Shown: positions 52,201 to 64,000 of the stretch, piece by piece
Layout: each line of letters begins with the position of its first letter
Position numbering within the stretch: position 1 is the stretch's first letter
Assembly (NCBI GenBank): GCA_000092065.1
Contig: CP000588.1
DNA length: 64,000 nt
Direction: 5' to 3' (one strand)
DNA from: Ostreococcus lucimarinus
Lineage: Eukaryota
Program-made: the position numbers and the translations under genes
Notes under the pieces: model-generated
What the model was told of the DNA's origin: nothing
The model's input: the letters and a program-made list of their open reading frames with translations, nothing else
Database searches by the model: none

Positions 52201-53241
52201 ATGCCTCGCGCCACGAAACGTAAGCGCACCGCGCCACGCGCGAAACCCACGAAACCCGCGAAAGAGGACAACATCGACGCGTCCGCGCGCAAGCGTCGTC
52301 GCACGACGAAGAAGCCACCGCGCGCAGACGAAAACCGGGGTTCTTACTTGCCGAACGATGTATGGAGCATCATCTTGGACAAACTCGTGCACCAGGCGTT
52401 TGGCCCGATCAAGCGCACGGTTTTCGAGGGTCCCGCGGACGTCCCCGTGGCGCGTGAAGTCGATCGAAGCGCGACTGTGTTTAAAGCTCGAGCCAAGGCG
52501 CTGCTCGCGCTTCGATGCGTGAATAAACAGTTGCGCGCGCTTCTCGGAAGCGACTTTGGCGAGACGCTGTACGCGACGTGCAACGAGAGAGCGCGACATT
52601 ACACGGATGTGCTCGATAGCCGCGATCTTCGCCCTGCGAGTATGCTTGAGCGACATATGTGTTATTTCGCGCACACGACTGGATGCCAGAAGTGCGACAA
52701 GCACCGGACCATGCGAAAGCCAAATTTTACATTTGGCGTTCGCATGTGCAAGGAATGCTTACGGAAACGCACGGTCATCGATCGCGAGTTAGAAAATGAG
52801 TATTCGCTCTGGGCTTACTTGAACGAAATCTTCGCACGATTACCGCACGATGTCGTCAAGGGATGGTCTGCGTACTACAAGGAAGAGTACTACATGAAAA
52901 GGCTCTGGCGCGCGAGCGTGGCGAATCTCGTCGACGAGCTCCGTCGTCCAAAGGCCGCGCCCGCCGCGCATGAAACCGCCCGCGCGAAGGCCAAGTCCGC
53001 CAAGACGCGCGCGCGCGCGCTCACGGACGACCAAAAGCGCGCCGAGCGTAAGGCGACGATCGACGCAATCTTGGCTCCGCTCGCGAAGCCCGGCGTCGAT
53101 TTCGCGCGCAGCGCGCTCTACCGCGCGCAAATCGCCGTCCCGCGGCTCCTCGCCTCCGTCGACGCCTTCGCCTGGCGCCACGCCCCGCACATTCTCGACG
53201 AGCTCGCGAGCGACGCCTCGCCGTCCGACGCCGACGCGTGA
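52201..53241 (+). CDS. hypothetical protein with a basic N-terminal nuclear-localisation-like patch and an F-box-like segment
   Basis: The start is MPRATKRKRTAPRAKPTKPAKED. The F-box-like segment is LPNDVWSIILDKLV. A Cys/His cluster CYFAHTTGCQKCDKH...CKEC follows. Confidence 0.35.
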   Translation: MPRATKRKRTAPRAKPTKPAKEDNIDASARKRRRTTKKPPRADENRGSYLPNDVWSIILDKLVHQAFGPIKRTVFEGPADVPVAREVDRSATVFKARAKALLALRCVNKQLRALLGSDFGETLYATCNERARHYTDVLDSRDLRPASMLERHMCYFAHTTGCQKCDKHRTMRKPNFTFGVRMCKECLRKRTVIDRELENEYSLWAYLNEIFARLPHDVVKGWSAYYKEEYYMKRLWRASVANLVDELRRPKAAPAAHETARAKAKSAKTRARALTDDQKRAERKATIDAILAPLAKPGVDFARSALYRAQIAVPRLLASVDAFAWRHAPHILDELASDASPSDADA

Positions 53242-53738
53242 GTCTCACGCGCGACGTCTCTTCCGACCGACGACTCTTCTGACGACCGACCGACCGACCG
53301 ACCGAGATCGCCGCCACGTCAGCGTGCCCACGCCGGGATCTTTATCTCGCCGCGCGCGGCACTTTTTCCCATATATCCGCGCGACGAATCTGTTTTACGA
53401 CGAAAAGTGAACACAAAAATCGCGACCCCGGACGCTTTTTCAGACACCCGGATTAAACCGGAAAAACCCGCGCCGGAGACCCCGCACTGCATCTCGCGCG
53501 TGCGTCGCGTGCGAACATCCCGACTCGCGCGGTGCGGTGCTGCCGGACGAAACATATTGTCCACGCGCGCGCGCGCGCTTTTGAAGCGCTGACGATCGCG
53601 CGTCGACGCGAATTCGCTGAGAATTCGAACGCACATCCGCGCGGGACGAACGTGCACTTTTCGCGCGAGTTTTTCGTCGCGCGGCGGGTGTGGCGACCGC
53701 GCGCGGACGGTGCGCGCGGGTGAATCGGACGCGGGAAT

Positions 53739-54955
53739 ATGACTTCGCCGATTCTCGTGCCGGGCGCGCACGGAGGAGAGTCCGCGAACGCGATGGACGG
53801 CGCGACGTCGCCGCCGCAACTCGGCGCGCCGCGAGAGGTTTGCCGCGATTTTTTAAAGGTGGGTCGTCTTGAGTCGTGACTCGTCGTTTTCGCGAAAAGA
53901 CCCTTTCGAGCTCGAGCGAGAAAACGGTCGATCTGGCGATCGATCGACGCGAATCGAGCGATGTGGTCGTGAAGATACTGACGATGGTGTGCGCGCTTCG
54001 CTTCGCGACGCAGGGAGCGTGTTTCCGGGAGAATTGTCGATACGCGCACGACGCGGCGGAGGGCGCGGCGGTGCCGACGCAGACGACGCAACCGGTTTGC
54101 AGAGACTATCAAAACGGTCGATGCTTCCGAGCTTCGTGCAGGTTTTATCACGGTTCCAACGCTGAGCAAGTAGCGGTGCAGCTTGGCGCGGGTAATCGAA
54201 TGTTCCCTGGATCCATCAACGGCGCGCAAGGGATGTACGGCGCCGCCACTGGCGACTTGTTGCACAACAAGAATCCGCAGTTGCACATGATGAACAGGAC
54301 GATGAATCTTCCCATGAACATGGTGGGCAACCCCGATCCCGCGGCTTTGCTTGGCGCCGACGCGAGTACTGCGGCTTTACTCGGAGGCAATTTGAGCTTG
54401 GAACAAGCGCTGTTTTTGCAAACGGCGATGGCAAACGGGACGGCGTACGATAATAACGCCGCGCTCACCGCCGTGGCCATGGCAAACGAGATTCTCCGAA
54501 GAAACGCCGCTGGACAGCAAGCACCGAACGGTAATTACGATATGAGCTCGATGTACGCGCAGCAAATGGCGACGGTGGTTGCGCAGCAGCAAGCGGCACT
54601 CGCACAGCAAATGGCTGCGGCGAATGGTCAATTGACAAACGGCGGCTTCGCCCCTCTCAACAACGGAGAGAAATTGTCGAAAGATGCCGGTGTTGGCGGT
54701 GCGTACCAACAAGCAGTTGCAGCAGCGAGCGCAGCGATGAACAATCCATCTGCCCCCGGTGAGCAATTTTCTTGGACTGGGATCGAATACGCCACAAACG
54801 GAGTCCACCAACAAAATCAATTTAAGCCAGTCGACTCCATCGCCGCGCTTCCGGATTCATTAGTCGACAATGATCTCTTTGGATTTGTCAACTCGGAAAT
54901 GTCAAACGCAGCCGCCGCGTTTGTTCCTGGATCTGCTTTGGGGAACCTCCAATGA
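53739..54955 (+). CDS. tandem CCCH zinc-finger protein (two C-x7-C-x4-C-x3-H fingers); two exons (about 53739..53858 and 54014..54955)
   Basis: Exon 1 reads M...PREVCRDFLK. The donor is GTGGGT and the acceptor is CGACGCAG. Exon 2 reads GACFRENCRYAHD...VCRDYQNGRCFRASCRFYHG, so finger 1 spans the intron. The C-terminal half is Gln/Ala/Asn/Met-rich low complexity. Track coordinates were used to fix a one-base ambiguity here. Confidence 0.55.
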
Positions 54956-58127: not shown

Positions 58128-60899
58128 ATGACCGCCACCGAAGGTGACGCGGAAGACAATAAAGTCTTCGTCGCCGTGCGCGTGCGTCCGCTGAACGCGA
58201 GCGAGCGCAACGCGAGCGCCAGCGCATGGAACGTCGTGTCGACGAACGCGATTGCGCCGCAGGTGCGTCGAAAGAAAAGAAACGAATCTAACGTCGTGAA
58301 CCGCTGCTTCCGCCGACGTTGCGCCGATGACGCTCGCGCACTCGTATGATGGGTCTCGAGCGTGAGCTACGGCGACGCGCGAGCGCGAAGGCGCGCGATG
58401 AAGACGCGCGATGATGAACGCGCGCTCGGGGGAACCAATCAGAATCTGACAAAGGCGCGCGCGGATGATTTTTACGCACGGCAGGATGGCGCGTCGACGA
58501 CGTACGCGTTCGATCGCGTGTTTGATGAAACGAGCGATAATAGAGCGGTGTACGAGGCGACGACGTCGAAGATAGTGCAGAACGTAATCGGGGGATTTAA
58601 CGGAACGGTGTTCGCGTACGGGCAGACGTCCAGCGGGAAGACGCACACGATGCACGGGACGAAGGAGGAGTTAGGGGTGATACCGCTCGCAGTGCGCGAT
58701 GTGTTTGATGCGGTACGAAGACACGGGAGCGATCGAGAGTTTTTGATTCGAGTGAGTTATTTGGAGATTTACAACGAGAAGATGATGGACTTGTTCGACG
58801 GCGCCGGAGAAGATGAAGAGACGTCAAAGTTGTCAATTCGTGAGGATAAAGAGCGAGGGACGTACGTGATGGGTCTGCGAGAAGAGGTCGTGACGACACC
58901 ATCGCAAGTGCTAGCGCTTCTAGAGCTCGGGACGACGCGCAGGCACGTCGGGGCGACGAATATGAACGCGCACTCGTCTCGTTCGCACACGATTTTCCGA
59001 ATGATCGTCGAGTCAAGGGCGATCAGTGGGGGGATGCAGGGCGGTGCCGACGACGGCGCTGCGGTTTTAGTGTCCACTTTAAACTTGGTCGATCTCGCCG
59101 GGTCCGAGCGCATGTCAAAAACGGGTGCCGAAGGGCAGCGTGCCAAGGAGGGCGCGCACATCAACAAGAGTTTGATGACGCTCGGAGTCGTCATCAACAA
59201 ACTTTCCGAAGGCGTCGAGTCCAAGGGAGGTCATATTCCCTATCGTGATTCAAAGTTGACTCGTATTTTACAGCCTGCGCTTGGTGGGAACTCCAAGACC
59301 GCCATCGTGTGCGCGATGACCCCGGCGGCGTCGCACTGCGAAGAGACGCACTCGACGCTGAAATTCGCCCAGCGCGCCAAACGCGTCGTCAACAAGGCGA
59401 CTAAGAACGAGGTCGCCGCGAATGGTGCCACGAATGCGATGCTGAAACGTCAACAGAAGGAAATAGCCGCGCTTAAAGCGCGTTTGGAAGAGGAAGGGTG
59501 CGCCAAAGTGGACGACAAAGCCATCGAGGCTTTGCGAAGGCGTCTAGCCGAAGCCGACCGTGAGAAGAATCTCATGGCGCTCGCCCTGGAGGACGGGGAA
59601 GAGAAGGCCAAGGAGCGCGAGGCGAAGATTTCCGAGCTCGAGGCAAAAGTAAAGGAGCTCAACGACGCGTTGAACGAAGCAAAGGCGCGAGACGAAGAAG
59701 AAGACCCACACACGGTTGAGGTGCGTTTGAATTCAAAACGCCTTTCGCCGGAACAGCAGTCACTCTCCGCGATGACGCCTGACACCCTTCAAGCCGTGCG
59801 GGCGTTCGAAGCGAAGATTGCGGCACTTGAAAAGGATCGCGATGAGCTAAAGTCCAAGGCGAGCGATCTCGAGCGCTCAGAGAAGCGTCGAGAGGAGCTC
59901 GAGCGTCAACGCCTGGATGCAGTGCGGGACATCGCCTCACTCAAGGAGGAAATCGCCGAAATAACCGCCGCGATGGTGGATAGCGATGGCACGAACGGCG
60001 CCGGGGATGTTCAAATACTTCTTGCACAAGCTAAACGCGCTCGTGCGCGCGCGGAAGACGAGCTTTCGAGTATCAAGGCGGAGTTTTTCGAGGAAAAGTC
60101 CCGGCGCGCCGTCGCCGAGGCGGAGGCCAAGCGTCTCGACGACAAACTTACGTCTTTACTCGAATCACAAAAGGACGGTGGGAATGCAGCGCACAGCAGT
60201 GATGTTGATTCCAAATCGTTGGCTCATTTGGCCCTGCGCAAGCAAGTCGTCAAGCAAAACGAAACCATCTCTTTGCTTGAGGCGCGCGTCAAGGAATCCG
60301 ACCAAATGCTTGACGAAGCCATCAAGGTGTACGAGGAGGAGGTGGCGAAGAACAAGCGGCTGATCGAGGCAGGTGTTGCGACGCAAGGTGATGAAATTCT
60401 AGCCGATCTTAACGCTGATGTCGATACGGACGCCGCCCTCGAAGCTTTAGAGGCGGAGCGACGCGCGAACGATGACTTGACCAAGCGGTGCGCAACGCTG
60501 GAGAAGAAATATTCCGTCGCCAAGGCTGCATTTGCCAAGCTCTCGAGTGAAAAGACAAAGGAAAATGACAACGCCAGCGATAAACTCAAGCGCGAAAACA
60601 AGGAGCTAAAGCGTCAAATGCACAAGCTCACTGAAGTCTACGCCCGACTGCGCGAGAAGTTTGCCGCGGGTGGTGACGCATTCGACAAAGTCAAGGACGC
60701 GACCGAGCTGAAGTACGATCTCCAGGCGCTCGAAAGAAAGCGGCAGATCGAGAAACAAGCACTCTTAGCGAAGATCAAGGAGTTCGAGGACATCGCCGCG
60801 TCGAACGGCCACGTATCTGAGCAAGGATCAGCGAAAAGGGTGAAGCGCGACTCGGGCGTCCCGCTCGCCGACGGCGCGAATCGACACCGAGTCGAGTGA
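58128..60899 (+). CDS. kinesin (N-terminal motor, CENP-E/kinesin-7-like, long coiled-coil tail); two exons (58128..58262 and 58443..60899)
   Basis: Exon 1 reads MTATEGDAEDNKVFVAVRVRPLNASE...NAIAPQ. The donor is CAG|GTGCGTCG and the acceptor is AATCAG. Exon 2 carries the P-loop GQTSSGKTHTM, switch I NAHSSRSH, switch II LVDLAGSE, and about 500 aa of coiled coil. The phase was checked against the track. Confidence 0.85.
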
Positions 60900-61071
60900 A
60901 GCGCGATAGAAATTGATGATTAATTTGTAATGACTACGAGCGATGATTATTTGATTGGTATCTTGCTGAAACTTCGAGTTCGCGCGCGGCTAGATGGACT
61001 GATGACAAAAATCGAGGTCGAACTACTCACCGCCGGTTTAGTCGTCCGGTGTACATCTTTCGCAAAGAGGT

Positions 61072-61088
61072 GGTGTTAAATGAACACC
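61072..61088 (-). terminator. putative histone mRNA 3' stem-loop (6 bp stem GGTGTT/AACACC, 5 nt loop) in the H2A 3' UTR, followed by a purine-rich element
   Basis: The sense-strand sequence TGGTGTTCATTTAACACCACCTCTTTGCGAAAGAT lies about 98 nt downstream of the H2A stop. A near-identical element sits downstream of H2B. Confidence 0.45.
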
Positions 61089-61185
61089 ATGTTTTTTTGT
61101 GAAACACGGCGAGAGCCCGATAATCGTGCCGGGCTTTTTTCGCTATGATCTATTTTTGAAAGCCTAAAGTAACGATTTAAACCGT

Positions 61186-61551
61186 TTACTTCTTGGACTT
61201 CTTCGGCAACAAGACCGAGTGGATGTTCGGGAGAACACCACCGGCCGCGATCGTGACGGTGCCGAGGAGCTTGGAAAGCTCTTCGTCGTTGCGGATCGCG
61301 AGTTGGATGTGGCGCGGCACGATGCGCGACTTCTTGTTGTCGCGGGACGCGTTGCCGGCGAGTTCAAGCACTTCCGCGGCCAAGTATTCGAGCACGGCGG
61401 CCAAGTAGACCGGCGCACCGGCACCGACGCGCGTGGCGTACTTGCCAGCCTTCAAGTAGCGGGCAACACGGCCAACCGGGAATTGCAAGCCCGCCTTGGC
61501 GGATCGGCTCGTCGCCTTCTTGCCAGTCTTTCCTTTACCTCGTCCGGACAT
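61186..61551 (-). CDS. H2A: histone H2A
   Basis: [97 protein letters not shown]... is a canonical H2A. The gene has no intron. Confidence 0.95.
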
Positions 61552-61919
61552 CGTGAGTTGTTTGTATTCGCGTGATGGAATGACGCCGGGGCAGACGCCA
61601 ACCGTCGCGACGACGAAAATTTCGCGAAAATCGACTCATCGCCTCACGCGATGTCGCCGTCGCGAGCCAATCAAAACGCGAGTGTACCCGGGGTACATTT
61701 CTAAAACGACCGATCATGATTCAAAATCGTGCGCGCAATTTCTTCATTTACACGTAATCTCGCGATTTGATTGGCTAAAAACGCGAGAGTCACTCCATTT
61801 GACGAGTCATGACCCCTAGATTGTGCACGAAAAATGCGTGAGTCGATTTCGCGAAATCGGCGCTCGTGCGCGCGCGACGACGGCGGCCGGCGTCATTCCA
61901 CGACACGAATACATTCAAA
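61552..61919. promoter_or_regulatory. bidirectional histone H2A/H2B promoter with mirrored TTTCGCGAAA palindromes and CCAAT boxes
   Basis: GAGTCGATTTTCGCGAAATTTTCG lies on the minus strand at about 61608-61635, and GAGTCGATTTCGCGAAATCGGCG on the plus strand at about 61838-61860. Each lies about 60-80 bp upstream of its ATG. CCAAT/ATTGG boxes are at about 61665 and 61762. Confidence 0.55.
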
Positions 61920-62258
61920 ATGGCCAAGAAGCCCGCGCAAAAGAAGCCCTCGGGCGCCAAGAAGGTTGGACGCAAGTCCAAGTCCGAAACCTACAAGATC
62001 TACATCTACAAGGTCTTGAAGCAAGTGCACCCGGACACCGGTATCTCCTCCAAGGCGATGTCCATCATGAACTCGTTCATCAACGACATCTTCGAGAAGA
62101 TCGCCACGGAAGCCGCCAAGCTCGCGCGATACAACAAGAAGCCGACGGTCACGTCCCGCGAAATCCAAACCGCGGTCCGATTGATCTTGCCGGGTGAACT
62201 CGCCAAGCACGCCGTCTCCGAAGGCACCAAGGCCGTCACCAAGTTCACCTCCGCGTAA
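61920..62258 (+). CDS. H2B: histone H2B
   Basis: [112 protein letters not shown] is a canonical H2B. The ATG at 61920 was checked. Confidence 0.95.
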
Positions 62259-62351
62259 GCGTTTTGAACTGGGACGTCTGTCACACTTAGAAATCAAAAA
62301 AAACCAAAATCATAGACCGCTTCTCGACCGAGAGTCTGTCTTTAAACATTT

Positions 62352-62367
62352 GGTGTTCATTAACACC
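62352..62367 (+). terminator. putative histone mRNA 3' stem-loop (GGTGTT CATT AACACC) in the H2B 3' UTR, followed by a purine-rich element
   Basis: TTTGGTGTTCATTAACACCACCTCTGAGCGAAAGAT lies about 94 nt downstream of the H2B stop. The architecture (6 bp stem, 4 nt loop, then ACC, then a GAAAGA-like purine element) mirrors the metazoan histone stem-loop plus downstream-element arrangement. Confidence 0.45.
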
Positions 62368-62514
62368 ACCTCTGAGCGAAAGATCCGTGCCTACATAAAA
62401 CTAAACCGCTTCACCGCGCCAAAGTAAACAATTTGGCGACGCGTTTGAATTCAAAATATCCGCCCCGAGTCGCGCGCACTGCCCTATGTAAGTGTTACAT
62501 GTCTTCTACGTTGT

Positions 62515-64000
62515 CTAACGTCGCGCCACGCGATCGATTTCCTCCCCTGCGCGCGCGCAAAAGTCTACGAACCCGTCGTAGGCGCCCGGGGCGAACTCGC
62601 TCTCGAGTTCTTCCACCAAGCGCGCGTCCACAGGGGATGGGTCGTCCGCGCCTCCCAAGCGCACGTGCGTCACGCGAGGCAAAAACGTGCCCTCGAACGA
62701 TTGCTCGCGGATACGACGAATCTCGCGATCGAGCGCCGAGCCATGAGCGGGCGGACACGACGCAACGGCTTCGGGGCCGATGTAAGCGACGACAACTTCG
62801 TCGTCGCCTCGAATGAGGAGGACGCCGTTGGCTGCTTCCACCTCCTGCCGGCGAAGAGGCATGCGGCCTTTCGAGAATAATGATGACGACCCGTTGGTAC
62901 CGTCGATTGCATTTTCCTCACCTTCATTGCATTCCTCGAATGCGCGTAATTCTGGATACGCGTACGTTGCGGAGTCGTCGGCGTCGAACCGAAGCAAACG
63001 CGAGCGCGCTGCAACGCGAGCGTCCGGGTGCGAACCCATCGGATGGAGAATTTTCGAGCGCAGCAACCCGTAGACGAGTCTTGGAACGACATCGGTGACG
63101 AATTCAAATGTATTTGACGTCTTTCGCGCAGCGCTGGAGAACGCGATGAACCAATCCACGAGCGCTCGGCGTGCCTCGGTGGAGCCTTCTTCATCCGCCG
63201 TCATTAACGCTTGCCGAGCGAGCACACACATCACCGCGTTCGCGTCTACGTGCTTGTAGACGTCTCGCGCACTTCTTGCGATGTTTGCTCTGCATGAGTG
63301 TATGCGTCGGCGTCGACGACGATGCACGACAACCTCACCGGTGGCTCGATCGACGTCGCGTGTGATGCACGTATACTCGAATGCGAGTTGTATTTTGGGG
63401 TAACCACCGTTCAGGTCTTCCTCTAACCCCGCGCTCGTGGCGTAGTCGAAGTCGAACGCAAAAGTATCTTTTGTCGCACACGAAGCGATGTGATAAAGCC
63501 CAGGATAAGCTTTGTCCGCGTGTAACGATCCGTAAGCGTTGGCAATTTCCAAATCCGCCGTCGAACGGATGCGCAAAGTAGCGTTGATTGCCTTCTCGTT
63601 TCGAAGCAATCGATAGATATCACCGACTATTGGGATGTTTTGTGCATTTGGGTAGAGCAAGAAGGTACCCCCACTGCGCTCTGCGAGCGGCGCCAGAGTG
63701 GTCAAATCGTTGAAATCATCGCTCGTCACGACGACATCGACCTCCACACCTCGTATCAGGCATCGCTCACCGACACTTTCGTAGTGGTCGTGTGCGGGTA
63801 TCATCAAAGAGTCGGCCTCGCGAGAGGCGAATTCAAAATCCTCCATTGTCGGTCGAGCGTTTTCATGCAATAAAACGTCGGCGACAGACTTAGAGAGTCG
63901 ACCGACGTCGCAACTCCCGACACCTCGGCTCGGACCACCGCGAAGAAACGCTAACACTCGCGCACTCGAAATGAATCCATCGTCTACCGCTTGCTCGATA
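62515..64000 (-). CDS. Sec23/Sec24-family COPII coat protein (trunk, beta-sandwich, helical and gelsolin-like regions); 5' end lies beyond the window
   Basis: The frame is open to the window edge. The trunk region reads SSARVLAFLRGGPSRGVG, the beta-sandwich reads IQLAFEYTCITRDVDRATGEVVVHRRRRRRIH, and helical and gelsolin-like C-terminal parts follow. Sec23 versus Sec24 paralogy is not resolved. Confidence 0.55.
   Translation of the reverse strand, partial: IEQAVDDGFISSARVLAFLRGGPSRGVGSCDVGRLSKSVADVLLHENARPTMEDFEFASREADSLMIPAHDHYESVGERCLIRGVEVDVVVTSDDFNDLTTLAPLAERSGGTFLLYPNAQNIPIVGDIYRLLRNEKAINATLRIRSTADLEIANAYGSLHADKAYPGLYHIASCATKDTFAFDFDYATSAGLEEDLNGGYPKIQLAFEYTCITRDVDRATGEVVVHRRRRRRIHSCRANIARSARDVYKHVDANAVMCVLARQALMTADEEGSTEARRALVDWFIAFSSAARKTSNTFEFVTDVVPRLVYGLLRSKILHPMGSHPDARVAARSRLLRFDADDSATYAYPELRAFEECNEGEENAIDGTNGSSSLFSKGRMPLRRQEVEAANGVLLIRGDDEVVVAYIGPEAVASCPPAHGSALDREIRRIREQSFEGTFLPRVTHVRLGGADDPSPVDARLVEELESEFAPGAYDGFVDFCARAGEEIDRVARR

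What the first reader, a model, noticed from the sequence alone, without database searches (positions are those of the whole stretch)
61060..62385. Conserved 3' stem-loop plus purine-rich element on both histone mRNAs, and mirrored TTTCGCGAAA palindromes in the shared promoter
The divergent H2A/H2B pair shares an about 370 bp promoter. It contains two inverted copies of GAGTCGATTT(T)CGCGAAAT; the core TTTCGCGAAA is a palindrome that overlaps the E2F-type TTTSSCGC consensus. One copy faces each gene at a similar distance from its ATG. Each gene then carries, in sense orientation about 95 nt after its stop, the same 35-nt element TGGTGTTCATT(T)AACACCACCTCTNNGCGAAAGAT. This forms a 6 bp stem with a 4-5 nt loop, followed by ACC and a GAAAGA-like purine tract about 10 nt later. 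That is the architecture of replication-dependent histone 3' processing signals (stem-loop plus U7-type downstream element), although the stem sequence differs from the metazoan consensus GGCYCTTYTNAGRGCC. It suggests S-phase-coupled transcription and non-polyadenylated 3' end formation in this alga.
Basis: partly seen in the sequence, partly recalled or inferred. Interest (0 to 1): 0.6.

Follow-up and report, generated by a model that had tools for sequence, protein, structure and literature searches.

The report
Green-algal histone mRNA 3' end signal
Both histone genes in this Ostreococcus lucimarinus window carry the green-lineage form of the histone mRNA 3' stem-loop followed by a conserved AAAGAU element; this kind of signal is already known in green algae and mosses, though the AAAGAU part looks like an animal U7-type element and has not, to my knowledge, been described in algae.

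Summary
The window is Ostreococcus lucimarinus CCE9901. H2A (61186-61551, minus) and H2B (61920-62258, plus) are divergent. Each has UGGUGUU-CAUU(U)-AACACCA-CC 92-96 nt after its stop, then AAAGAU 11 nt after the stem. A covariance model finds only these two sites in 64 kb.

The same stem-loop lies in sense orientation after H2A, H2B, H2A.X, H3 and H4 genes in several Ostreococcus-type species. It also follows histone genes in Micromonas-like contigs (one compensatory pair change), other chlorophytes and AT-rich plant-like (probably moss) contigs. Surrounding UTR sequence is unalignable. Rfam Histone3 aligns in exact register but far below threshold.

It is most likely the SLBP-type 3' processing signal of replication-dependent histone mRNAs. 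This kind is known from Volvox, Chlamydomonas and moss, so it is a new member of a known kind.

AAAGAU begins 8-13 nt after the stem in 18 of 21 distinct Ostreococcus-type elements and in 0 of 21 control windows. It is a real second element. A U7-like partner is only inferred.

The mirrored GAGTCGATTT(T)CGCGAAA motif is real. It matches TTTSSCGC at 7 of 8 positions and is not conserved outside O. lucimarinus, so the E2F assignment is unproven.

SLBP, U7 and transcript 3' ends were not testable here.

The parts
61186..61551 (-). Histone H2A gene (121 aa), identical to O. lucimarinus XP_001419342
61920..62258 (+). Histone H2B gene (112 aa), identical to O. lucimarinus XP_001419128 and XP_001420602
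62351..62370 (+). H2B 3' stem-loop UGGUGUU-CAUU-AACACCA followed by CC. In the canonical reading it is the 6-bp stem GGUGUU/AACACC, a 4-nt loop and the ACC flank. It begins 92 nt after the stop.
   Evidence: covariance model R1 scores 40.3 bits; Rfam Histone3 aligns in register at 11.7 bits
62379..62384 (+). H2B downstream element AAAGAU (within GCGAAAGAU), starting 11 nt after the 6-bp stem
61069..61089 (-). H2A 3' stem-loop UGGUGUU-CAUUU-AACACCA followed by CC, with a 5-nt loop. It begins 96 nt after the stop.
   Evidence: R1 scores 43.7 bits
61055..61060 (-). H2A downstream element AAAGAU (within GCGAAAGAU), starting 11 nt after the 6-bp stem
61620..61637 (-). H2A-facing promoter motif GAGTCGATTTTCGCGAAA (core palindrome TTTCGCGAAA), ending 68 nt from the H2A ATG
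61840..61856 (+). H2B-facing promoter motif GAGTCGATTTCGCGAAA, ending 63 nt from the H2B ATG. It is conserved at the same distance in the paralogous H2B promoter (L013).
61665..61687 (-). H2A-side CCAAT-box module; the + strand reads AGCCAATCAAAACGCGAG. It mirrors 61754-61776.
   Evidence: (I3, 23 nt, 87% complementary)
61754..61776 (+). H2B-side CCAAT-box module (CGCGATTTGATTGGCT). It is conserved in the paralogous H2B promoter.
61558..61589 (-). H2A proximal module and probable 5' UTR; in H2A sense it reads CCGGCGTCATTCCATCACGCGAATACAAACAA. It contains GCGTCA (close to the plant histone hexamer ACGTCA) and the initiator-like TCATTCC.
   Evidence: (I1, 32 nt, 84% complementary). The initiator and hexamer readings are inference.
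61887..61918 (+). H2B proximal module and probable 5' UTR (CCGGCGTCATTCCACGACACGAATACATTCAA). It mirrors 61558-61589.
   Evidence: CGTCATT also lies about 30 nt before the ATG of an O. mediterraneus-like H4 gene
62400..62408 (+). ACTAAACCG, shared with the H2A 3' region (61034-61042, minus), 15-16 nt after AAAGAU. Function unknown.
   Evidence: ACTAAAC also follows AAAGAT in L064 H4
61034..61042 (-). ACTAAACCG, the H2A copy

Best explanation
The two 35-nt elements are the 3' end-formation signals of replication-dependent histone mRNAs, in the form used by the green lineage.

Proposed mechanism: the nascent H2A and H2B transcripts fold into the hairpin GGUGUU-CAUU(U)-AACACC, flanked by an A/C-rich 5' side and ACC on the 3' side. 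A stem-loop-binding protein (SLBP family) recognises this hairpin mainly by sequence. The pre-mRNA is cut a few nucleotides after the stem, within or just after ACC. The mature mRNA then ends in the hairpin instead of a poly(A) tail, which couples its stability and translation to S phase.

AAAGAU lies at a nearly fixed 8-13 nt after the stem. It is a second recognition element that positions the cleavage factor. It works like the animal histone downstream element, either by pairing with a U7-like small RNA (which would carry AUCUUU) or by binding a protein.

Transcription comes from two back-to-back promoters built from the same ordered modules: a CCAAT box, then GAGTCGATTT(T)CGCGAAA, then GCGTCATTCC (initiator and 5' UTR). 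The CGCG-core palindrome may be an E2F/DP-type cell-cycle site.

What is shown: the sequence, the structure, restriction to histone genes, sense orientation, and conservation across histone classes and species. What is inferred: SLBP binding, the cleavage position, the absence of poly(A), the U7-like partner, and E2F binding.
For: Identity of the window: O. lucimarinus CCE9901.

Specificity:
- The element occurs twice in the window with none expected.
- Covariance model R1, run over the whole window with filters off, finds only these two sites (43.7 and 40.3 bits). Apart from their antisense echoes (18.0 and 17.3 bits), the next hit scores 8.5 bits.
- Five exact hits in 596 Gb of bacterial genomes all lie inside coding sequence (reading GVFINTT) and none is next to a histone gene.

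Paralogue: the second O. lucimarinus H2B gene (L013) has the same stem-loop 118 nt after its stop, followed by AAAGAAU.

Orthologues retrieved by protein, so not biased by the motif:
- Another Ostreococcus species has the identical stem-loop plus AAAGAU after H2B, H2A and an H2A.X gene, while the rest of each UTR differs.
- Micromonas-like contigs have UGGUGAU-AAAUA-AUCACCA, a compensatory U-A to A-U change. Another has UGGUGUU-ACUAAA-GACACCA. In three of the four elements a purine-rich tract follows (AAAGAAAGAA, GCGAAAGCGAA).

H3 and H4:
- A metagenome scan for the element 48-108 nt after H3 or H4 C-terminal codons returned 26 loci. tblastn confirmed H3 or H4 genes in 25 of them.
- One group of these contigs encodes a response-regulator protein that clusters at 90% identity or more with an O. 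mediterraneus protein.
- An O. tauri-type H4 has the stem-loop plus AAAGAU. Its neighbouring gene clusters with XP_003082040.

Structure: all 31 aligned elements pair at all 7 positions, and RNAalifold predicts only this stem.

Relation to the animal signal:
- Rfam Histone3 (RF00032) is the best-scoring family at the window's H2B element. It aligns the 6-bp stem, the 4-nt loop and ACC in exact register.
- It scores 24.8 bits on the same element after a chlorophyte H3 gene.

Downstream element: AAAGAT starts 8-13 nt after the stem (mode 11) in 18 of 21 distinct Ostreococcus-type elements, or 20 of 21 counting AAAGAAT and AAAGAGAT. It occurs in 0 of 21 control windows on either side.

Literature:
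- Poly(A)-less histone mRNAs with stem-loops, and SLBP genes, are reported in green algae, moss, fern and a cycad (PMC13130582).
- Chlamydomonas replication histone genes give non-polyadenylated transcripts that peak before cell division (PMC8226298).
- Non-polyadenylated histone genes were described in Chlamydomonas and Volvox (Fabry 1995, as cited in PMC5054213).
Against: No transcript 3' ends were available for Ostreococcus. Core histone genes of O. tauri were reported as induced in RNA-seq from poly(A)-selected RNA (PMC5790953). That same dataset also contained rRNA reads.

The element does not reach the Rfam Histone3 gathering score: 11.7 bits against 34, and no hit at all in the whole-window scans. 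The first loop base is C or A, not the U of the animal consensus.

One of the four O. lucimarinus H2A/H2B genes (H2A-2 in L013) has no intact stem-loop.

I could not check whether O. lucimarinus has SLBP, Lsm10, Lsm11 or a U7-like RNA. The H3, H4 and H1 genes of O. lucimarinus itself were not retrieved; the evidence for H3 and H4 comes from congeners.

Covariation is thin: one stem pair changes, in one lineage. The stem is otherwise invariant, and most H3/H4 examples were found with a pattern that fixed the stem sequence.
Confidence: 0.78

Rival explanations
1. The hairpin is a conserved protein-binding element that controls the stability or translation of histone mRNAs, but it is not the 3' end. 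Transcripts are cleaved and polyadenylated further downstream, as reported for some histone genes that carry both signals.
For: Core histone genes of O. tauri were reported as induced in RNA-seq from poly(A)-selected RNA (PMC5790953). One H2A paralogue manages without the hairpin. From my own recollection, Davila Lopez and Samuelsson (RNA 2008) describe polyadenylated histone mRNAs that also carry stem-loops; I could not retrieve that paper.
Against: The tightly spaced AAAGAU element 8-13 nt after the stem is what a cleavage-positioning signal looks like, and nothing further downstream is conserved. The neighbouring convergent genes stop only about 155 nt (kinesin, stop at 60899) and 130 nt (Sec23-like ORF, stop at 62515) beyond AAAGAU, which leaves little room for a downstream site. 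Green algae with closely similar elements give poly(A)-less transcripts. The poly(A)-selected libraries in PMC5790953 also contained rRNA.
Confidence: 0.12
2. The downstream AAAGAU is not a U7-type element. It is a binding site for a protein component of the cleavage machinery, or part of the cleavage site itself, and no U7-like RNA exists in this alga.
For: [quoted passage not shown] Other chlorophyte contigs have a different downstream motif (GAAACC / AAAACC), and some have none. One Ostreococcus-type H4 has AAAAGG instead. Rfam finds no U7 in the window, and a pattern search of 173 kb of Mamiellales DNA found nothing convincing.
Against: The sequence (GAAAGA core) and the nearly fixed spacing from the stem match the animal element closely; the comparison with sea-urchin CAAGAAAGA is from my own knowledge. 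The searches for U7 covered only about 1% of a genome, so they say little.
Confidence: 0.5
3. The similarity between the two 3' UTRs is a local accident: a recent gene conversion, an inverted duplication or a dispersed repeat with no function.
For: In this locus the identity between the two UTRs is longer than the conserved core (CCTCTNNGCGAAAGAT plus ACTAAACCG). Some local homogenisation is therefore plausible.
Against: The core is found after unlinked histone genes of five classes in many species, always in sense orientation. It is nowhere else in the 64-kb window.
Confidence: 0.01
4. The promoter palindrome TTTCGCGAAA is not an E2F site. It binds some other factor, or it is a lineage-specific motif of O. 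lucimarinus H2A/H2B promoters.
For: - It matches TTTSSCGC at 7 of 8 positions, and its CGCG core is 2 bp shorter than in palindromic E2F sites (the second point is from my own knowledge).
- TTTSSCGC itself is not enriched in the window: 30 found against 36.6 expected.
- In another Ostreococcus species only one of three sequenced versions of the H2A-H2B spacer has GCGCGAAA at the equivalent place. A Micromonas-like spacer has neither form.
- An O. mediterraneus-like H4 promoter has no such site.
- An MCM gene in L013 uses the canonical TTTCCCGCC.
- The motif always comes with a GAGTCGA flank, which E2F does not explain.
Against: The motif sits about 40-50 bp upstream of the likely start site in a TATA-less promoter. 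It is conserved in three of four O. lucimarinus H2A/H2B promoters. The fourth has two canonical GCGCGAAA sites instead. Ostreococcus has the Rb-E2F pathway (PMC2873908).
Confidence: 0.55

Closest known systems
Metazoan replication-dependent histone mRNA 3' stem-loop (Rfam RF00032 Histone3) with the U7 histone downstream element
   Same: It lies in the 3' UTR of core histone genes in sense orientation. It has a 6-bp stem that begins GG and ends CC, a 4-nt loop with U at the third position, an A/C-rich 5' flank and an ACC 3' flank. A purine element with a GAAAGA-like core follows at a nearly fixed distance. It is present on H2A, H2B, H3, H4 and H2A.X genes. The Rfam model aligns in exact register.
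   Different: The stem is GGUGUU/AACACC, not GGCUCU/AGAGCC. An extra U-A pair can extend the stem to 7 bp. The loop starts with C or A and may be 5 nt, or 9 nt in one species. The element scores 11.7 bits against the 34-bit gathering threshold. No U7, Lsm10/11 or SLBP was examined here.
3' palindrome of Volvox and Chlamydomonas histone genes, and the poly(A)-less histone mRNAs of green algae, moss, fern and cycad (Muller 1990; Fabry 1995; PMC13130582; PMC8226298)
   Same: The lineage is the same (Viridiplantae). The genes are arranged as divergent H2A-H2B pairs. A hairpin stands in the 3' UTR. The stem GGUGUU/AACACC followed by ACC is identical in chlorophyte and AT-rich plant-like metagenome contigs, where Rfam Histone3 gives 19-25 bits. 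Chlamydomonas also has a minority of histone genes without the signal that are polyadenylated, which parallels O. lucimarinus H2A-2.
   Different: The Ostreococcus loop is CAUU(U), where the other chlorophytes have AAUU or AUUU. Ostreococcus-type species add the AAAGAU element, which the other chlorophyte contigs lack; several of them have GAAACC or AAAACC instead. I could not read the published Volvox or Chlamydomonas palindrome sequences, so identity with them is not verified. I found no published description of the signal for Mamiellophyceae in the searchable library.
E2F/DP sites and plant histone promoter elements (CCAAT box, hexamer ACGTCA)
   Same: The promoter is TATA-less and carries a CCAAT box, a CGCG-core T-flanked palindrome near the start site, and a GCGTCA / ACGTCA-like motif next to the likely initiator. 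Canonical GCGCGAAA sites stand in the paralogous H2A promoter.
   Different: TTTCGCGAAA departs from TTTSSCGC at the last position. It is tied to a GAGTCGA flank and is not conserved beyond O. lucimarinus.

Membership tests
Histone 3' UTR stem-loop (Rfam RF00032 Histone3) | Lies in the 3' UTR of core histone genes, in the sense of the mRNA | tested here: met
   Both window copies and all related copies examined lie downstream of a histone stop codon in sense orientation.
Histone 3' UTR stem-loop (Rfam RF00032 Histone3) | 6-bp stem starting GG, 4-nt loop, A-rich 5' flank, ACC 3' flank | tested here: met
   The Rfam alignment registers GGUGUU / CAUU / AACACC / ACC against GGCUCU / UUUa / AGAGCC / ACc. 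The H2A copy has a 5-nt loop.
Histone 3' UTR stem-loop (Rfam RF00032 Histone3) | Scores at or above the family's gathering threshold (34 bits) | tested here: not met
   11.7 bits at the H2B element when only 81 nt are searched. No hit in the whole-window scan or the 1.5-kb scan. Related chlorophyte and plant-like copies score 24.8 and 19.3 bits.
Histone 3' UTR stem-loop (Rfam RF00032 Histone3) | Shared by all replication-dependent core histone classes of the organism | tested here: inconclusive
   In O. lucimarinus, three of four H2A/H2B genes have it. Its own H3, H4 and H1 genes were not retrieved. Congeners, including O. tauri-type and O. mediterraneus-like contigs, have it on H3, H4, H2A, H2B and H2A.X.
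Histone 3' UTR stem-loop (Rfam RF00032 Histone3) | Bound by SLBP (PF15247 RNA-binding domain protein) | not testable with these tools
   No O. lucimarinus proteome was accessible. SLBP homologues are reported in green algae generally (PMC13130582).
Histone 3' UTR stem-loop (Rfam RF00032 Histone3) | Mature mRNA ends a few nucleotides after the stem and lacks poly(A) | not testable with these tools
   No transcript data were available. It is shown for Chlamydomonas and moss. O. tauri core histone genes were reported as induced in RNA-seq from poly(A)-selected RNA.
U7 snRNP-dependent histone downstream element | Purine-rich element at a fixed short distance 3' of the stem-loop | tested here: met
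   AAAGAT starts 8-13 nt after the stem in 18 of 21 distinct Ostreococcus-type elements and in 0 of 21 control windows. Purine tracts are also present in Micromonas-like copies.
U7 snRNP-dependent histone downstream element | Base-pairs with the 5' end of a U7 snRNA carried by an Lsm10/Lsm11 Sm ring | not testable with these tools
   No U7 family hit in the window. A pattern search of 173 kb found nothing convincing.
E2F/DP binding site | Match to the TTTSSCGC consensus | tested here: not met
   TTTCGCGA matches 7 of 8 positions. TTTSSCGC is not enriched in the window.
E2F/DP binding site | Conserved in orthologous or co-regulated promoters | tested here: inconclusive
   The motif is conserved in three of four O. 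lucimarinus H2A/H2B promoters, and the fourth has canonical GCGCGAAA twice. It is variable in another Ostreococcus species, absent from Micromonas-like spacers, and absent from an O. mediterraneus-like H4 promoter.
Green-algal histone gene organisation (Volvox / Chlamydomonas type) | Divergent H2A-H2B pair with a short shared spacer and a 3' palindrome on each gene | tested here: met
   O. lucimarinus divergent pairs are also noted in PMC8226298.

The most novel reading that the evidence does not exclude
Ostreococcus-type picoalgae, and perhaps all Mamiellophyceae, process histone pre-mRNAs with a true downstream-element ruler. AAAGAU, held 8-13 nt after the stem-loop on every histone class, would pair with a still undiscovered U7-like small RNA carrying AUCUUU. 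If so, U7-type histone 3' processing predates animals and is not a metazoan innovation.
Probability: 0.22. Interest if true: 0.7.

Novelty: new member of a known kind. Interest (0 to 1): 0.36.

Why it matters
The finding extends the histone stem-loop 3' end pathway, known from animals, volvocine algae and mosses, to the smallest free-living eukaryotes. It also shows that the green lineage keeps one nearly invariant hairpin (GGUGUU/AACACC followed by ACC) from prasinophyte-grade algae to plant-like contigs.

In practice, Rfam's Histone3 model misses these elements. Histone 3' ends in Mamiellophyceae genomes will therefore go unannotated, and poly(A)-selected transcriptomes may under-count histone mRNAs.

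The fixed-distance AAAGAU element gives a concrete, testable handle on an open question: does a U7-like guide, or some other downstream factor, exist outside animals? O. tauri is transformable and can be synchronised by light, so the question is experimentally tractable there.

Tried and rejected
- Rfam on the whole window at gathering threshold, and on 1.5 kb at E up to 10, gave no Histone3 or U7 hit. Only an 81-nt search brought Histone3 up, at 11.7 bits.
- Hairpin stability is not significant against shuffles, with z between -0.9 and -1.6. I did not use energy as evidence.
- The viral contig scan found nothing.
- The bacterial and archaeal genome scan gave 5 chance hits inside coding sequences.
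- An extended helix pairing AAAGAU with upstream U-rich sequence appears in the single-sequence folds of both window UTRs. It is not conserved, and RNAalifold does not predict it. Rejected.
- I tried to show that L041 (H4 with the element) is O. lucimarinus. Its neighbouring dipeptidase is only 78-79% identical to the nearest large clusters (one of which holds the O. tauri protein), so it belongs to another Mamiellales species.
- I checked the GC-rich chlorophyte H3-H4 spacers for the Chlamydomonas promoter motifs (TGGCCAG, CGTTGACC, as I recall them from the Fabry 1995 abstract). They are absent, so those contigs cannot be tied to Chlamydomonas.
- A pattern search for a U7-like RNA (ATCTTT, then an Sm-like site) in 173 kb gave two unconvincing hits.
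- Davila Lopez and Samuelsson 2008 (RNA 14:1), the most relevant survey, is not held. No supplements are held for PMC13130582.
- Literal searches for the hairpin sequence in the paper library found nothing.
- An SLBP search was not attempted. Any query would return only animal SLBPs among the 120 hits listed.
Full report
**What is in the window**

The region holds a divergent histone pair. H2A is at 61186-61551 on the minus strand and H2B at 61920-62258 on the plus strand, separated by 368 bp. Both proteins are identical to predicted proteins of Ostreococcus lucimarinus CCE9901. The window's G+C content is 60.7%. The same locus, flanked by a kinesin gene and a Sec23 gene, recurs at 99.5-99.8% identity in many marine metagenome assemblies. 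There are no other histone genes in the 64 kb.

GGTGTTCATT(T)AACACCACC occurs exactly twice, each time downstream of and in the sense of a histone gene. None is expected in shuffled sequence. The two 3' UTRs align only over this block and a later 9-mer. The shared block is TGGTGTTCATT(T)AACACCACCTCTNNGCGAAAGAT. It starts 92 nt (H2B) and 96 nt (H2A) after the stop codon.

The hairpin has 7 possible pairs, or the canonical 6 followed by ACC. The loop is 4 nt in H2B and 5 nt in H2A. Its folding energy is unremarkable against shuffles, so the case rests on conservation.

In the promoter, GAGTCGATTT(T)CGCGAAA occurs twice in inverted orientation, ending 63 and 68 nt from the two ATGs, with none expected by chance.

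**It is specific to histone genes and not a dispersed repeat**

I built a covariance model from 30 related elements and ran it over the whole window with filters off. It finds only the two sites, at 43.7 and 40.3 bits, plus their antisense echoes. The next hit scores 8.5 bits. A scan of 596 Gb of bacterial and archaeal genomes gave 5 exact matches, about the number I estimate by chance. All lie inside coding sequence and none is near a histone gene.

**Paralogues and orthologues**

O. lucimarinus has a second H2A-H2B pair on another chromosome (L013, L015, L018). Its H2B carries the identical stem-loop 118 nt after the stop, followed by AAAGAAU. Its H2A has no intact copy.

Loci fetched through related H2B proteins are not biased by the motif. 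They show the following.

- A second Ostreococcus species (H2B 93% identical) has the identical stem-loop followed by AAAGAU after H2B, after H2A and after an H2A.X gene (C-terminus SQEY). The rest of each UTR is unrelated.
- Micromonas-like contigs have UGGUGAU-AAAUA-AUCACCA. Here one U-A pair is replaced by A-U.
- Another Micromonas-like contig has UGGUGUU-ACUAAA-GACACCA.
- All of these are followed by CCAC, and most of them by purine tracts.

**H3 and H4**

I scanned the metagenome collection for the element placed 48-108 nt after the last codons of H3 (RGERA) or H4 (YGFGG). The scan returned 26 loci, and tblastn confirmed H3 or H4 genes in 25. They fall into three groups.

- Marine Ostreococcus-type contigs have aUGGUGUUCAUUUAACACCACC followed by AAAGAU. 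One group of them encodes a protein that clusters with an O. mediterraneus protein.
- G+C-rich chlorophyte contigs have loops AAUU or AUUU and no AAAGAU.
- Contigs with 40-43% G+C encode the plant H4 protein and have loop CUUU. I take these to be moss from their composition and my recollection of the sample type; this is not verified.

I then followed synteny from a neighbouring dipeptidase gene. This led to an O. tauri-type H4 with the stem-loop plus AAAGAU; its neighbour clusters with O. tauri XP_003082040. It also led to two further species. One of these has a 9-nt loop and AAAAGG in place of AAAGAU.

I did not obtain the H3, H4 or H1 genes of O. lucimarinus itself.

**Structure**

Across 31 aligned elements all 7 pairs form in every sequence. 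One pair shows a compensatory change in two sequences, and the other six never vary. RNAalifold predicts only this stem and no pairing that involves the downstream element.

Invariance of the stem sequence is what one expects of a site read by a sequence-specific protein. It also means covariation support is thin. In addition, the H3/H4 examples were found with a pattern that fixed the stem.

**Relation to the known animal signal**

Rfam Histone3 (RF00032) does not reach threshold anywhere in the window. When only 81 nt are searched it is the best-scoring family at the H2B element, at 11.7 bits against a gathering score of 34. It aligns the 6-bp stem, the 4-nt loop and the ACC flank in exact register: GG at the base, U as the last 5'-arm base, U at loop position 3, A opening the 3' arm, then CC and ACC. 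The same element after a chlorophyte H3 gene scores 24.8 bits, and after a plant-like H4 gene 19.3 bits.

The element therefore works like a histone stem-loop and is almost certainly homologous to one. It fails the curated score test, and I report it that way.

**The downstream element**

In 18 of 21 distinct Ostreococcus-type elements, AAAGAT begins 8-13 nt after the 6-bp stem (mode 11). Counting AAAGAAT and AAAGAGAT, the figure is 20 of 21. The hexamer is absent from 40-nt control windows on both sides in all 21. These elements sit on H2A, H2B, H2A.X, H3 and H4 genes whose UTRs are otherwise unalignable, so this is selection and not shared descent of neutral sequence.

The sequence and spacing resemble the animal histone downstream element, for example sea-urchin CAAGAAAGA (my own knowledge). 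A U7-like partner is only an inference. The literature I could read calls the U7-dependent mode a metazoan innovation (PMC5054213). The window has no U7 hit. My small pattern search of 173 kb was negative.

The G+C-rich chlorophyte contigs have no AAAGAT. Several of them have GAAACC or AAAACC 12-20 nt after the stem instead.

**The promoter**

Read in the sense of each gene, the two halves of the spacer share three modules in the same order.

1. A CCAAT box (TTTGATTGGCT).
2. GAGTCGATTT(T)CGCGAAAT.
3. CCGGCGTCATTCCA..CGAATACA, just before the ATG.

The third module contains an initiator-like TCATTCC and GCGTCA, which is close to the plant histone hexamer ACGTCA (interpretation from my own knowledge). 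CGTCATT also precedes an O. mediterraneus-like H4 gene.

On the E2F reading of the second module:

- The paralogous H2B promoter keeps all three modules at the same distances. The paralogous H2A promoter instead has two canonical GCGCGAAA sites.
- TTTCGCGAAA matches TTTSSCGC at 7 of 8 positions.
- The consensus itself is not enriched in the window.
- The motif is not kept in another Ostreococcus species, in Micromonas-like spacers or in the congener's H4 promoter.
- An MCM gene in L013 uses a canonical TTTCCCGCC.
- Ostreococcus does have an Rb-E2F pathway (PMC2873908).

An E2F role is therefore possible but unproven.

**What is known already**

- Non-polyadenylated histone genes with 3' palindromes were described in Volvox and Chlamydomonas (Muller 1990; Fabry 1995, as cited).
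- Chlamydomonas replication histone genes give non-polyadenylated transcripts that peak before division. A few 'emergency' histone genes are polyadenylated (PMC8226298). That paper also notes divergent histone pairs in O. lucimarinus.
- A 2026 atlas reports poly(A)-less histone mRNAs with stem-loops, and SLBP genes, in green algae, moss, fern and a cycad (PMC13130582).
- I found no description of the signal in Ostreococcus or Micromonas in the searchable library.
- The most relevant survey, Davila Lopez and Samuelsson 2008, is not held and may cover it.
- As a caution, core histone genes of O. tauri were reported as induced in RNA-seq from poly(A)-selected RNA, although rRNA reads were present in that dataset too (PMC5790953).

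**Verdict**

It is the green-lineage version of the histone mRNA 3' processing signal, which makes it a new member of a known kind. Its sequence is divergent enough to escape Rfam.

The part that goes beyond what I could find described is the fixed-distance AAAGAU element of Ostreococcus-type algae. It makes the question of a U7-like factor outside animals directly testable.

The E2F label on the promoter palindrome should be treated as a hypothesis.

Noticed in passing
L013 2990-3125 (minus strand), the second O. lucimarinus H2A gene; the same in L015 and L018: This H2A paralogue (2 substitutions, T9S and A58C, relative to the window's H2A) has no intact stem-loop. About 52 nt after its stop is what looks like a decayed copy, GGTCTGTATCATACCAACCACTAGCGAACAT. 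Upstream of that is a G+C-rich imperfect hairpin. Its partner H2B keeps the signal. It may be a polyadenylated gene of the 'emergency' type described in Chlamydomonas.
   Followed up: partly
L022 1642-1672 (minus strand): In a related Ostreococcus species, an H2A.X gene (C-terminus SQEY) carries the same stem-loop plus AAAGAU 51 nt after its stop. It sits in divergent orientation to an H2B gene.
   Followed up: partly
L034, L038, L042, L046, L049, L057 (G+C-rich chlorophyte H3, H4 and H2B contigs), 12-20 nt after the stem-loop: These contigs lack AAAGAT. Several have a recurrent GAAACC / AAAACC / TAAACC motif downstream of the hairpin, for example TTGGAAACC after both H3 and H4 of L049. This may be a different lineage-specific downstream element.
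   Followed up: no
window 62400-62408 (+) and 61034-61042 (-); L064 about 113-119: ACTAAACCG is shared by both window 3' UTRs 15-16 nt after AAAGAT. ACTAAAC also follows AAAGAT in an H4 gene of another Ostreococcus-type species. It is absent from most other copies. It could be a third element or a product of local homogenisation.
   Followed up: partly
L059 849-873 (and L060, L061): The H4 stem-loop of one abundant Ostreococcus-type species has a 9-nt loop (CAAAAAAUU) on the same stem, and AAAAGG in place of AAAGAU. This is a natural variant that would test loop-length tolerance.
   Followed up: no
window 53869-53897: The only other TTTCGCGAAA in the window is preceded by GAGTCGTGACTCGTCG. This resembles the GAGTC-rich flank of the histone promoter motif. 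It lies just after a possible 5' splice site of an unrelated gene. A cluster of canonical TTTCGCGC sites lies at 52238-53666.
   Followed up: no
L038 99-217 and L046 1-100: A 5S rRNA gene (96.5 bits) lies directly beside the H3 gene of a divergent H3-H4 pair in a G+C-rich chlorophyte contig.
   Followed up: no
L013 7845-7860: A canonical E2F-type site, TTTCCCGCC, followed by CATTCG, lies upstream of an MCM-family gene next to the second histone pair. Replication genes in this alga may therefore use the standard site.
   Followed up: no
window 61113-61145: A G+C-rich hairpin (GCCCG...CGGGC) lies between the H2A stop and its stem-loop and is followed by a T run on the plus strand. On the plus strand it resembles an intrinsic terminator facing the convergent kinesin gene. 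The H2B 3' UTR has an unrelated hairpin (CUCUCG...CGAGAG) at the equivalent place.
   Followed up: no
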